Origin: Candidatus Caldarchaeum sp.
Lineage (GTDB): Archaea > Thermoproteota > Nitrososphaeria_A > Caldarchaeales > Caldarchaeaceae
Assembly: GCA_033580815.1 (NCBI GenBank)
Contig: JAVQUC010000001.1
Coordinates: forward strand, 93,259-157,258
DNA: 64,000 bases
Reading direction: 5' to 3'
Under the pieces are notes generated by a model. That model was given only the letters and a program-made list of their open reading frames with translations, did no database searches and was not told the origin of the DNA. Positions 39,804 through 40,827 of the stretch are shown in pieces. Each line of letters starts with the position of its first letter. Position 1 is the stretch's first letter. Made by a program: the position numbers and the translations under genes.

Positions 39804-40827
39804 TAGTGGACGTGCTGGAGACCTCCTTTCCAAACAGAAGGGTAGGTCGATTTGCGCATTATCACTCTTTCGATGTCGACCGCCAGGCCCTCGGTCGCCT
39901 CCATCATCTCCTGACTGTTCATGACAGCGCGTCCGATAGCAACGACTTCGTTTTTTAAAGTCACGACTGCGACAAGGGCTTGTCTTTCGATGTCGGAGTC
40001 GAGCATGCTTATTCCCGCGGCCATCAAATCAGCACCATGACACACTGCGTCTACGGCAGTATCTAGGACGTAGACCTTTGGAACAAGGGCTAAGCAATTT
40101 TCTACGGGTTGAACGACCTTTCTAAGCAGCGATTCATCCCCCGATTCCCGGTACAGTGTCACCGCCTCTTGAAGCGTTAGCAGGTTGTAGGACGTACTTT
40201 CTTCGAAAGGCCCCGCCCGCGTTCGCCTGAGCTCTTCCATGTGGGCTCCCACTCCAAGATACTCCCCGACGTCATGACAGACCTTTCTGACGTACGTACC
40301 CGCTGAACAGCCGAGCCTGAAAAGAACATACCTGCCTTCTCTTTCGAGCATTTCGAAATAGTATACCTCTCTGATTCGAGGCTTTCTTGCGACTGCAGCG
40401 CGTATGGGCGGCACCTGGTAGATCGCACCGGTGAAAACCTTCAGAGCTTGGTCCAGCTCGCTTTCGGAAACGTCTCCGTGAAGCTCCATCAACCCGACGT
40501 ATTCTTTCCCGCCTTGCATGAAAACCGGCGCAACCTTGGTTGCTTCACCTAGCATAATCGGTAAAACCCCGGAAACGGCGGGATTTCCCCGTGGGCTTCT
40601 AGGGTCCCGCCGTGTCCTGCCTGCTCGACGTTAAGGATCTTCTTAACCAAGAACGCTACTTCGTGGCTTGTCGGGCCTCTTTGTTTGTCCAGGTTGATCG
40701 CCCCTAGTGACAGAAGTTCTTGTAGAGTCCTTTGTTCTGGTCTTTTTCCATACCGGTCGTCTGTTTCCGATTCTCTTTTCACAAGGGTCTCATATTTTCG
40801 CAGCCATGGAGGATGGCTTGATTTCAT
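39803..40827 (-). CDS. cbf5: tRNA/rRNA pseudouridine synthase Cbf5 (TruB family), interrupted by a 14-nt intron
   Basis: Exon 1 is 40827-40599 (..DKQRGPTSHEV..AGHGGTL + G). Exon 2 is 40584-39803 (AT-CCC.. = [18 protein letters not shown].. to the PUA domain). The joined CDS is 1011 nt, giving 336 aa. Unspliced, it appears as the two track ORFs 40549-40827 and 39803-40555. Confidence 0.85.
40585..40598 (-). other. putative BHB-type (HBh') mRNA intron in cbf5
   Basis: mRNA-sense AAGCCCACGGGGAA. It is flanked by a 9-bp exon-exon helix, a 4-bp central helix and a 3-nt AAA bulge. Removal restores the reading frame and the GTLDP motif. Confidence 0.75.

What the first reader, a model, noticed from the sequence alone, without database searches (positions are those of the whole stretch)
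40575..40613. 14-nt bulge-helix-bulge-type intron splitting the catalytic Asp codon of cbf5
The adjacent minus-strand ORFs 40549-40827 and 39803-40555 are the N- and C-terminal parts of one Cbf5/TruB pseudouridine synthase.
- ORF1 reads ..AGHGGTL and then drifts into unrelated sequence (EAHGEIPPFPGFYRLC, stop).
- The frame of ORF2, read upstream of its ATG, gives ..[18 protein letters not shown].
- Deleting exactly 14 nt (40585-40598, mRNA sense AAGCCCACGGGGAA) joins CTA G|AT CCC GCC. This restores ..[24 protein letters not shown].., the universal TruB/Cbf5 GTLDP catalytic motif. The joined CDS is 1011 nt, giving a 336-aa product.
- The flanks fold as 5'-ACGGCGGGA CCCU AGA AGCCCAC GGGG AAA UCCCGCCGU-3'.
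- That fold has a 9-bp exon-exon helix (40613-40605 with 40583-40575) and a 4-bp central helix (CCCU:GGGG, including one G-U).
- A 3-nt AAA bulge carries the 3' splice site. The 5' splice site lies in AGA, exactly 4 bp away, at the start of the closing loop.
- This is a relaxed HBh'-type substrate for the archaeal splicing endonuclease. Cutting after the 2nd nt of each 3-nt element yields the junction above.

BHB introns in cbf5 mRNA are known from Crenarchaeota (Watanabe et al. 2002, FEBS Lett). The phenomenon is therefore not new, but this instance is minimal in size and sits inside the active-site codon.
Basis: partly seen in the sequence, partly recalled or inferred. Interest (0 to 1): 0.7.

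Follow-up and report, generated by a model that had tools for sequence, protein, structure and literature searches.

The report
14-nt splicing-endonuclease intron in cbf5
The pseudouridine-synthase gene cbf5 of this hot-spring archaeon (Candidatus Caldarchaeum) is interrupted inside its catalytic aspartate codon by a 14-base intron of the tRNA-type, a phenomenon already known from Crenarchaeota at exactly this codon; this is an apparently unreported lineage and the shortest version seen here.

Summary
Minus-strand ORFs 40549-40827 and 39803-40555 are two pieces of one Cbf5. Removing 40598-40585 (AAGCCCACGGGGAA) gives a 1011-nt CDS and a 336-aa protein. That protein is colinear with solved Cbf5 structures through GHGGTLDP.

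The fold alone is not beyond chance. The support comes from three things:
- the splice register is exact;
- all 17 Caldarchaeum loci examined carry a 14-nt insert, with a hypervariable core and invariant GGGG;
- synonymous sites in the paired codons never vary.

The interpretation (a relaxed BHB intron cut by the splicing endonuclease) is supported, with two corrections:
- All published cbf5 introns split this same Asp codon between nt 1 and nt 2, so the position is not special.
- The motif is hBH (exonic helix present, intronic helix absent), not HBh'.

The window is from Candidatus Caldarchaeum (Aigarchaeota). I found no report of a cbf5 intron there. Published sizes are 16-44 nt.

In passing, a metagenome scan found the same-site intron in more than 100 contigs, including a Bathyarchaeota-like clade.

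Verdict: new member of a known kind. No RNA evidence was available.

The parts
40599..40827 (-). cbf5 exon 1 (229 nt). Encodes M1..L76 plus the first nucleotide (G40599) of the catalytic Asp77 codon. Covers the DKCLD domain and the start of TruB_N.
   Evidence: Colinear with residues 15 onward of P. furiosus Cbf5 2hvy_A.
40585..40598 (-). 14-nt intron, mRNA sense AAGCCCACGGGGAA. Nt 1 completes the 5' splice-site triplet. Nt 2-8 (AGCCCAC) are a variable loop. Nt 9-12 (GGGG) are the 3' strand of the central helix. Nt 13-14 (AA) are the first two nt of the 3' bulge.
   Evidence: removal restores frame and GAT. (14 nt in 17/17 Caldarchaeum loci; core hypervariable; GGGG and A[AG] invariant).
39803..40584 (-). 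cbf5 exon 2 (782 nt including the stop). Starts with the AT of the Asp77 codon. Encodes the rest of TruB_N, TruB_C_2 and PUA. Public annotation calls only the 250-aa piece starting at the internal ATG at 40555.
   Evidence: P0001, 250 aa, 100% identical, named Cbf5 of a Candidatus Calda... MAG.
40605..40613 (-). 5' strand of exon-exon outer helix h (ACGGCGGGA; codons His-Gly-Gly-Thr).
   Evidence: MFE. (core 6 bp invariant in 11 distinct sequences). (third codon positions invariant).
40575..40583 (-). 3' strand of outer helix h (UCCCGCCGU; codons Asp-Pro-Ala-Val).
40601..40604 (-). 5' strand of the 4-bp central helix H (CCCU, exon 1, Thr-Leu codons).
   Evidence: 4/4 pairs invariant; C:G, C:G, C:G, U:G.
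40587..40590 (-). 3' strand of central helix H (GGGG, intron).
40598..40600 (-). 5' splice-site triplet AGA at the start of the 10-nt loop (40591-40600). Predicted cut between G40599 and A40598.
   Evidence: Geometry. [quoted passage not shown] The cut itself is inferred.
40584..40586 (-). 3-nt bulge AAA carrying the 3' splice site. Predicted cut between A40585 and A40584.
   Evidence: bulge in MFE and centroid. (same bulge, AAA or AGA, in the MFE of all 11 distinct relatives). The cut itself is inferred.

Best explanation
The cbf5 gene of this Candidatus Caldarchaeum genome is transcribed as a pre-mRNA carrying a 14-nt archaeal BHB-type intron between nt 1 and nt 2 of the catalytic Asp77 codon.

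The flanking exon sequences (GGC GGG A / U CCC GCC) pair into a 6-9-bp helix h. The exon-1 bases CCCU pair with the intron bases GGGG to form the 4-bp central helix H. The 3' splice site lies in a closed 3-nt bulge (AAA). The 5' splice site lies exactly 4 bp away, in the triplet AGA at the start of a 10-nt loop. This is an hBH (bulge-helix-loop) substrate.

The heterotetrameric (alpha-beta)2 splicing endonuclease cuts after the 2nd nt of each triplet. An RtcB-type ligase then joins CUAG to AUCCC, giving an mRNA for a 336-aa active Cbf5.

What is shown: the sequence, the fold, the frame and motif restoration, conservation, and synonymous-site constraint. What is inferred: cleavage, ligation, and the enzyme type in this organism.
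For: 1. Removal of 40598-40585 restores GHGGTLDP and a 336-aa protein colinear with solved Cbf5 structures.

2. The MFE and centroid fold match the proposed structure. The same architecture is the MFE in all 11 distinct Caldarchaeum junction sequences.

3. All 17 Caldarchaeum loci examined (16 fetched loci, including 10 species-level GTDB representatives, plus the window) carry an insert of exactly 14 nt. Cbf5 identity across these relatives runs from about 66 to 79%. Ten different 7-nt cores were seen, while GGGG and the terminal A[AG] never change.

4. The paired codons GGC GGG ACC .. GAT CCC have invariant third positions in 13 distinct sequences. All 12 flanking codons with an invariant amino acid vary at the third position: 0/5 vs 12/12, Fisher p about 1.6e-4 by my calculation. 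Intron-less Aigarchaeota use other synonymous codons there (GGG GGG ACT TTA GAT CCA; GGT GGA ACA CTT GAT CCA).

5. With the proposed pairing, 94% of cells are paired. With the 3' partner slid by 1-3 columns, at most 56% are paired.

6. The site is identical to the RT-PCR-validated crenarchaeal cbf5 introns. The five crenarchaeal introns I fetched share ACCCU(A/G)G|A...; four of them end GGGGNN|A(U/C)CC, and S. marinus ends GGUUAA|ACCC.

7. No full-length intron-less Cbf5 above 59% identity exists in the 5.8-billion-protein search. Every hit at 65% identity or more is a 250-268-aa truncated call.

8. Literature: C. subterraneum has a heterotetrameric splicing endonuclease and non-canonical tRNA introns. 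[quoted passage not shown]
Against: - There is no RNA-level evidence (no transcriptome, no in vitro cleavage).
- There is no compensatory covariation. All core pairs are invariant, and outer pairs change on one side only.
- The fold energy and the bare motif frequency are at chance level.
- No EndA gene was found among the 20 window ORFs scanned with Pfam. The remaining ORFs were not scanned, so the enzyme type rests on literature for a congener.
- The 5' site sits in a 10-nt loop rather than a closed bulge. In 83 of 85 longer cbf5 introns an intronic helix h' closes that bulge, so this substrate is at the permissive end of what the enzyme is known to accept.
Confidence: 0.9

Rival explanations
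1. Translational recoding. The ribosome frameshifts (-1/+2) or hops over the 14 nt, so one polypeptide is made from an unspliced mRNA.
For: The two ORFs overlap in different frames, and the exon-2 frame is open upstream through the insert (..RSPRGNPAVSG). That is the usual signature of a frameshift site.
Against: - The Asp codon is physically split: G is 14 nt away from AT. Any frameshift or hop therefore yields Asn (AAU) or another residue plus extra amino acids in place of GTLDP, destroying the catalytic motif (derived).
- There is no slippery heptamer and no matched take-off/landing codons.
- The insert core is hypervariable while its length is fixed at 14 nt. That pattern fits an excised RNA element, not a translated or recoding signal.
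- The identical site is spliced at RNA level in Crenarchaeota.
Confidence: 0.03
2. The gene is genuinely split or degraded. Either it is a pseudogene or assembly/sequencing indel, or two separate polypeptides (76+ aa and 250 aa) assemble without the catalytic Asp.
For: Public annotation calls only a 250-aa C-terminal protein plus a roughly 90-aa DKCLD fragment. The window is from a MAG.
Against: - The same 14-nt insert is present in independently assembled MAGs from different sites and in 10 species-level representatives.
- Both exons are under purifying selection: amino acids are conserved while synonymous sites vary.
- Neither fragment would contain the catalytic Asp. ORF1 ends GGTLEAHGE.. 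and ORF2 starts 10 codons after DP.
- Cbf5 is a universal single-copy archaeal gene, and no second intact copy with more than 59% identity turned up.
Confidence: 0.03
3. The insert is excised, but not by the BHB/EndA pathway. For example, it could be removed by another RNase plus ligase, or be a self-processing element.
For: The 5' site is not in a closed 3-nt bulge and h' is missing. No EndA gene was seen in the ORFs scanned.
Against: - Fourteen nucleotides cannot encode a ribozyme or a group I/II intron. The Rfam scan finds nothing here.
- The two cut sites are exactly 4 bp apart on opposite strands. This is the hallmark spacing of the EndA dimer active sites (established knowledge; geometry).
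- Relaxed hBH/BHL substrates are documented for (alpha-beta)2 enzymes, which Aigarchaeota possess.
Confidence: 0.04

Closest known systems
Crenarchaeal cbf5 pre-mRNA intron (Watanabe et al. 2002 FEBS Lett; Yoshinari et al. 2006 BBRC; Yokobori et al. 2009, PMC2738675) in Sulfolobales and Desulfurococcales
   Same: - Same gene.
- Same insertion site and phase, between nt 1 and nt 2 of the catalytic Asp codon.
- Same exon context ACCCU(A/U/G)G|A....|A(U/C)CC. The same CCCU:GGGG central helix is seen in four of the five crenarchaeal sequences I fetched (A. pernix, S. islandicus, Ignisphaera, Desulfurococcus); S. marinus ends GGUUAA instead.
- Same predicted cut rule.
- Same enzyme class, the hetero-oligomeric EndA.
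- Same consequence for annotation: a truncated Cbf5 call.
   Different: - Host lineage. This is Candidatus Caldarchaeum (Aigarchaeota / Caldarchaeales). In crude NJ trees its Cbf5 groups with intron-less Aigarchaeota, Nitrososphaerota and Wolframiiraptor, not with Crenarchaeota.
- Size: 14 nt against the published 16-44 nt.
- Architecture is the mirror image. Here the exonic helix h is 6-9 bp and the intronic helix h' is 0-2 bp. In the longer cbf5 introns h' is at least 3 bp in 83/85, and h is 0-1 bp in 75/117 and 5 bp or fewer in 114/117.
Relaxed hBH / bulge-helix-loop (BHL) tRNA introns at non-canonical positions in Crenarchaeota, Thaumarchaeota and Aigarchaeota (Marck and Grosjean 2003; Tocchini-Valentini et al. 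2005)
   Same: One closed 3-nt bulge, a 4-bp helix, and the second cut site in a loop. They depend on (alpha-beta)2 or epsilon2 endonucleases. The size is within the tRNA-intron range of 11-175 nt quoted.
   Different: The substrate is an mRNA coding region, so both helix strands outside the intron are constrained by codons. The structure is maintained through synonymous-site choice rather than by free covariation.
HVO_1309 5'-UTR BHB intron of Haloferax volcanii (Schwarz et al. 2020, PMC7714728)
   Same: An mRNA processed by the tRNA splicing endonuclease at a BHB motif.
   Different: That intron is in a 5' UTR and is cut by an alpha2 enzyme at a canonical motif. It does not interrupt a codon.

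Membership tests
Archaeal BHB-type intron (substrate of splicing endonuclease EndA) | Two cleavage sites on opposite strands separated by a 4-bp helix, each in a 3-nt bulge. Relaxed forms (hBH or HBh') keep one closed bulge plus the 4-bp helix. | tested here: met
   The MFE and centroid show 4 bp CCCU:GGGG and a closed AAA bulge on the 3' side. The 5' site is in AGA at the loop start, exactly 4 bp away, which makes this the relaxed hBH form. The same fold is the MFE in 11 of 11 distinct relatives.
Archaeal BHB-type intron (substrate of splicing endonuclease EndA) | Cutting after the 2nd nt of each bulge and ligating yields a functional mature RNA. | tested here: met
   The junction CUAG|AUCCC restores the GAT (Asp) codon, the reading frame and a 336-aa Cbf5 colinear with 2hvy_A.
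Archaeal BHB-type intron (substrate of splicing endonuclease EndA) | Structural nucleotides are conserved and the intron interior is free to vary among relatives. | tested here: met
   17 of 17 loci carry a 14-nt insert. GGGG and the flanking A[AG] are invariant, and 10 different cores were seen. Synonymous sites in the paired codons are invariant. No compensatory double changes were available.
Archaeal BHB-type intron (substrate of splicing endonuclease EndA) | The host encodes an endonuclease able to cut relaxed motifs ((alpha-beta)2 or epsilon2). | not testable with these tools
   No tRNA_int_endo domain was found in the 20 window ORFs scanned, and the rest of the genome is not available. 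Literature reports a heterotetrameric EndA in C. subterraneum and the (alpha-beta)2 type in Aigarchaeota.
Archaeal BHB-type intron (substrate of splicing endonuclease EndA) | Excision and exon ligation are demonstrated at RNA level. | not testable with these tools
   No transcriptome or biochemical data are accessible.
cbf5 pre-mRNA intron (Watanabe 2002 / Yokobori 2009) | The host gene is the H/ACA pseudouridine synthase Cbf5. | tested here: met
   Pfam finds DKCLD, TruB_N, TruB_C_2 and PUA. E = 1e-106 to archaeal Cbf5 structures. The gene order L34e-cmk-L14e-cbf5 matches the relatives.
cbf5 pre-mRNA intron (Watanabe 2002 / Yokobori 2009) | [quoted passage not shown] | tested here: met
   G40599 | intron | A40584 U40583. 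The definition is quoted from the paper. The same position was confirmed in five crenarchaeal loci.
cbf5 pre-mRNA intron (Watanabe 2002 / Yokobori 2009) | Common descent with the Sulfolobales/Desulfurococcales intron (the paper infers a single origin in their common ancestor). | tested here: inconclusive
   Caldarchaeum Cbf5 is sister to intron-less Aigarchaeota/Nitrososphaerota and distant from Crenarchaeota in NJ trees without support values. The shared intron nucleotides (A.., GGGGNN) are all structurally forced. Homology, transfer and convergent gain therefore cannot be separated.

The most novel reading that the evidence does not exclude
[quoted passage not shown] It appears to be a widespread and repeatedly lost or gained feature.

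- It is fixed in the genus Caldarchaeum.
- It is present in a Bathyarchaeota-like clade (78% identity to a named Bathyarchaeota Cbf5).
- It is present in several other uncultured lineages from non-thermal sediments and peat.

In Caldarchaeum it has been reduced to a 14-nt form without the intronic helix h'. Recognition of that form has apparently shifted from the intronic helix to an exon-exon helix held in place by selection on synonymous codon positions.
Probability: 0.6. Interest if true: 0.55.

Novelty: new member of a known kind. Interest (0 to 1): 0.4.

Why it matters
1. Annotation. Public pipelines call Caldarchaeum Cbf5 as a 250-aa N-terminally truncated protein plus an orphan DKCLD fragment. 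The active-site Asp is then missing from every annotated product. The same error affects hundreds of database entries.

2. Enzymology. A 14-nt intron without h' defines a natural minimal mRNA substrate for the (alpha-beta)2 splicing endonuclease. It shows an RNA structure being maintained purely through synonymous codon choice.

3. Evolution. The same intron site occurs in Crenarchaeota, Aigarchaeota and Bathyarchaeota-like lineages, with intron-less close relatives in each. This makes the gain, loss or hot-spot question raised in 2009 testable on a much larger data set. It also reopens the question of why this one codon of this one gene keeps an intron, for example whether Cbf5 synthesis is coupled to tRNA-splicing capacity.

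None of this changes the known mechanism.

Tried and rejected
- Fold energy as evidence. z = -1.45, not significant.
- Motif counting as evidence. The hBH-loop motif is as common in shuffled sequence as in the window. I used register and conservation instead.
- Covariation test. There are 0 pairs with changes on both sides because the helices are coding and invariant. I replaced it with a synonymous-site comparison.
- Looking up the window's own contig through P0001. Not on record.
- EndA or RtcB in the window. 20 ORFs were scanned and neither was found. The remaining ORFs, mostly ribosomal or obviously other genes, were not scanned.
- Rfam scan of the window. Only tRNA-Ser was found. ARAGORN found one tRNA.
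- Literature searches for cbf5 with Caldiarchaeum, Caldarchae*, Aigarchaeota or Bathyarchaeota. No report of such an intron. Only the open-access library is searched, so absence is not proof.
- The listing of cluster members to name lineages of the metagenomic clades. The names were truncated or absent, so it was uninformative.
- My metagenome pattern required a gap of at least 8, so it could not find introns of 14 nt or fewer. It also forced ACCCUNG and GGGG, so it says nothing about the universality of helix H.
- Frameshift/hop and split-protein readings were rejected because neither can supply the catalytic Asp.

Full report
**1. The observation**

On the minus strand, ORF 40549-40827 (92 aa) ends ..EQAGHGGTLEAHGEIPPFPGFYRLC*. 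ORF 39803-40555 (250 aa) starts MLGEATKV. Deleting 40598..40585 (mRNA sense AAGCCCACGGGGAA) joins CTAG to ATCCCGCC. The result is a 1011-nt CDS and a 336-aa product reading ..[25 protein letters not shown]...

The product carries DKCLD, TruB_N, TruB_C_2 and PUA. It aligns end to end with P. furiosus Cbf5 2hvy_A (E = 1e-106), with no gap at GHGGTLDP.

- a 9-bp helix, ACGGCGGGA / UCCCGCCGU;
- directly stacked on it, a 4-bp CCCU:GGGG helix;
- a 3-nt AAA bulge on the 3' strand;
- a 10-nt loop.

**2. Is it more than chance?**

The structure by itself is not. The energy z-score is only -1.45. A script counting 'outer helix of at least 6 bp + 4-bp helix + 3-nt bulge + loop of 6-40 nt' finds 282 instances in the window against 288 in dinucleotide shuffles. 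With an outer helix of at least 9 bp the counts are 15 against 13.8.

Three other things carry the weight.

First, the motif lies in the single register whose canonical cuts restore both the frame and the GAT codon. I estimate this at about 5e-5 per position and loop length.

Second, the insert is conserved. A genome scan returned ten species-level Candidatus Caldarchaeum loci, and six more loci came from protein look-ups. All 16, plus the window, have an insert of exactly 14 nt at the same place. Ten different 7-nt cores occur (AGCCCAC, GCAAAGC, ACCATAC, AGCACCT, AGCTTTC, AACATTC, GTTTTTC, ACATGGT, ATCTTTC, GTCTTTC). GGGG and the terminal A[AG] are invariant.

Third, synonymous sites are constrained. 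In 13 distinct sequences the paired codons GGC GGG ACC .. GAT CCC never vary at the third position. All 12 flanking codons with an invariant amino acid do vary (0/5 vs 12/12, Fisher p about 1.6e-4). Intron-less Aigarchaeota use different synonymous codons at these positions, and CCCU is not kept.

A formal pair count shows 94% of cells paired, against at most 56% when the 3' partner is slid. It shows no compensatory double changes, because the core pairs never vary.

**3. What organism, and what is known**

The C-terminal ORF is 100% identical to an NCBI MAG protein named Cbf5 of 'Candidatus Calda...' (P0001). All relatives at 65% identity or more are 250-268-aa truncated calls. All full-length hits are at 59% identity or less; they include Wolframiiraptor, an 'Aigarchaeota archaeon' and Nitrososphaerota. 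The genome scan names the relatives Candidatus Caldarchaeum, including C. subterraneum. The window is therefore from an aigarchaeote.

Yokobori et al. [quoted passage not shown] The position here is therefore the known one, not a special feature of this instance.

Their table lists introns of 16-44 nt in Sulfolobales and Desulfurococcales. It lists none in Thermoproteales, Thaumarchaeota or Korarchaeota.

I fetched five crenarchaeal loci. All have ACCCU(A/G)G|A(A/G)CCC at the 5' junction. Four of them (A. pernix 38 nt, S. islandicus 23 nt, Ignisphaera 39 nt, a Desulfurococcus MAG 22 nt) end GGGG(N)(N)|A(U/C)CC, so they share the same central helix and bulge positions. S. marinus (36 nt) ends GGUUAA|ACCC.

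The C. subterraneum genome paper does not mention cbf5. It does report a heterotetrameric splicing endonuclease and non-canonical tRNA introns. [quoted passage not shown] I found no paper linking cbf5 to Caldiarchaeum, Caldarchae* or Bathyarchaeota.

**4. How it most likely works**

The pre-mRNA folds so that exon 1 (..GGC GGG A) pairs with exon 2 (U CCC GCC..) to form h. Exon-1 CCCU pairs with intron GGGG to form H. The AAA bulge between H and h carries the 3' site. The 5' site lies in AGA immediately after H on the other strand.

The (alpha-beta)2 endonuclease cuts after the second nt of each triplet, and RtcB-type ligation gives CUAG-AUCCC.

The sequence, fold, junction, conservation and synonymous constraint are shown. 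Cleavage, ligation and the enzyme type in this organism are inferred from literature on a congener.

In the nomenclature quoted (h = exonic helix, h' = intronic helix) this is hBH, or bulge-helix-loop.

**5. What is different here**

I compared the architecture with 85 distinct longer introns from metagenomes.
- The intronic helix h', flush with the bulges, is at least 3 bp in 83 of 85 of them. About 7% of shuffled cores reach that. In the ten Caldarchaeum introns h' is 0-2 bp.
- Conversely, the exonic helix h is 6-9 bp in all 17 Caldarchaeum loci. In the longer introns it is 0-1 bp in 75 of 117 and 5 bp or fewer in 114 of 117.

Caldarchaeum thus has the mirror-image relaxation. Recognition appears to rest on the exon-exon helix, which fits the frozen synonymous sites. 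At 14 nt it is shorter than any published cbf5 intron (minimum 16) and any in my scan (minimum 16). However, my pattern could not detect introns shorter than 15 nt.

**6. Rivals**

*Frameshifting or hopping.* This cannot rebuild a GAU codon whose G is 14 nt from its AU. It would give Asn or extra residues in place of GTLDP.

*Pseudogene or assembly artefact.* This is excluded by the identical 14-nt length in independently assembled MAGs and by purifying selection on both exons.

*Two separate polypeptides.* Both would lack the catalytic Asp.

*A non-EndA excision route.* This is unlikely for a 14-nt element whose two cut sites are 4 bp apart. Rfam finds nothing there.

**7. Wider distribution (noticed in passing)**

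Of these, 113 are cbf5 genes with an insert of 16-42 nt at this codon (mode 19 nt). Many come from peat, freshwater and marine sediments.

The largest class is 78% identical to a named 'Candidatus Bathy...' full-length Cbf5. It has dozens of 254-264-aa truncated relatives in the protein collection.

Crude NJ trees (no support values) place the Caldarchaeum clade next to intron-less Aigarchaeota and Nitrososphaerota, away from Crenarchaeota. They show intron-bearing and intron-less sequences interleaved in several clades. This argues against transfer of the whole gene from Crenarchaeota. It leaves open ancient origin with many losses versus recurrent gain at a structurally predisposed site.

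**8. Verdict**

It is a new lineage and the smallest, h'-less form of a known kind of element. Interest is moderate.

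Noticed in passing
Many hits are from non-thermal peat and sediment samples. The largest class is 78% identical to a named Bathyarchaeota Cbf5 (P0285). This is far broader than the published Sulfolobales/Desulfurococcales range.
   Followed up: partly
L027-L146 and L001-L016 junction regions: There are two mirror-image architectures. Introns of 16 nt or more have an intronic helix h' of at least 3 bp (83/85) and little or no exonic helix h (0-1 bp in 75/117). The 14-nt Caldarchaeum introns have h of 6-9 bp and h' of 0-2 bp.
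   Followed up: yes
window 39803-40555 (-); L001 3001-3753; L022 801-1583; L023 801-1547: Public annotation (NCBI PGAP names seen for P0001, P0008, P0121, P0123) calls only the exon-2 part as 'Cbf5' (about 250-260 aa) and leaves a separate roughly 90-110-aa DKCLD ORF. This happens in Caldarchaeum and also in Aeropyrum and Saccharolobus, so the catalytic Asp is absent from every annotated product.
   Followed up: partly
window 60415-60852 (+): The ribosomal protein L15e ORF is only 145 aa. It matches residues 2-141 of PDB homologues that are 169-196 aa long and Pfam positions 2-142 of 191. A GTPase gene starts about 20 nt downstream, so the usual C-terminal 30-50 aa seem to be absent. This could be a naturally short form or another interruption.
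   Followed up: partly
window 39683-39768 (-) and 39156-39833 (-): tRNA-Ser(GGA) lies 35 nt downstream of the cbf5 stop. The mechanical 225-aa TTG ORF runs across it. The real gene is the DtxR-type iron-dependent repressor within 39156-39650. The same cbf5 / repressor / HMGL-like order is kept in relatives L001-L003.
   Followed up: partly
window 41126-42460 and 59066-60352: The conserved archaeal neighbourhood L34e-cmk-L14e-cbf5 with SecY/EMC3-like genes lies upstream. A cluster of RNase P protein subunits (Pop5/Rpp14, Rpp30-like) plus a PF01877 RNA-binding protein lies at 59-60 kb. No splicing endonuclease domain was found in the 20 ORFs scanned.
   Followed up: partly
L114 (20-nt AATATATAAAATAAGGGGAA), L087 (20 nt), L118 (34 nt): These are intron-bearing cbf5 genes whose proteins read DPAV(S/T)GVLP like Caldarchaeum. 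In the NJ tree L114 and L087 fall near the Aigarchaeota/Nitrososphaerota group; L118 (34 nt) instead falls in the Bathyarchaeota-like half of the tree. L114 and L087 suggest further intron-containing lineages close to, but outside, the genus Caldarchaeum. L114's intron core is almost pure A/T with no h'.
   Followed up: no
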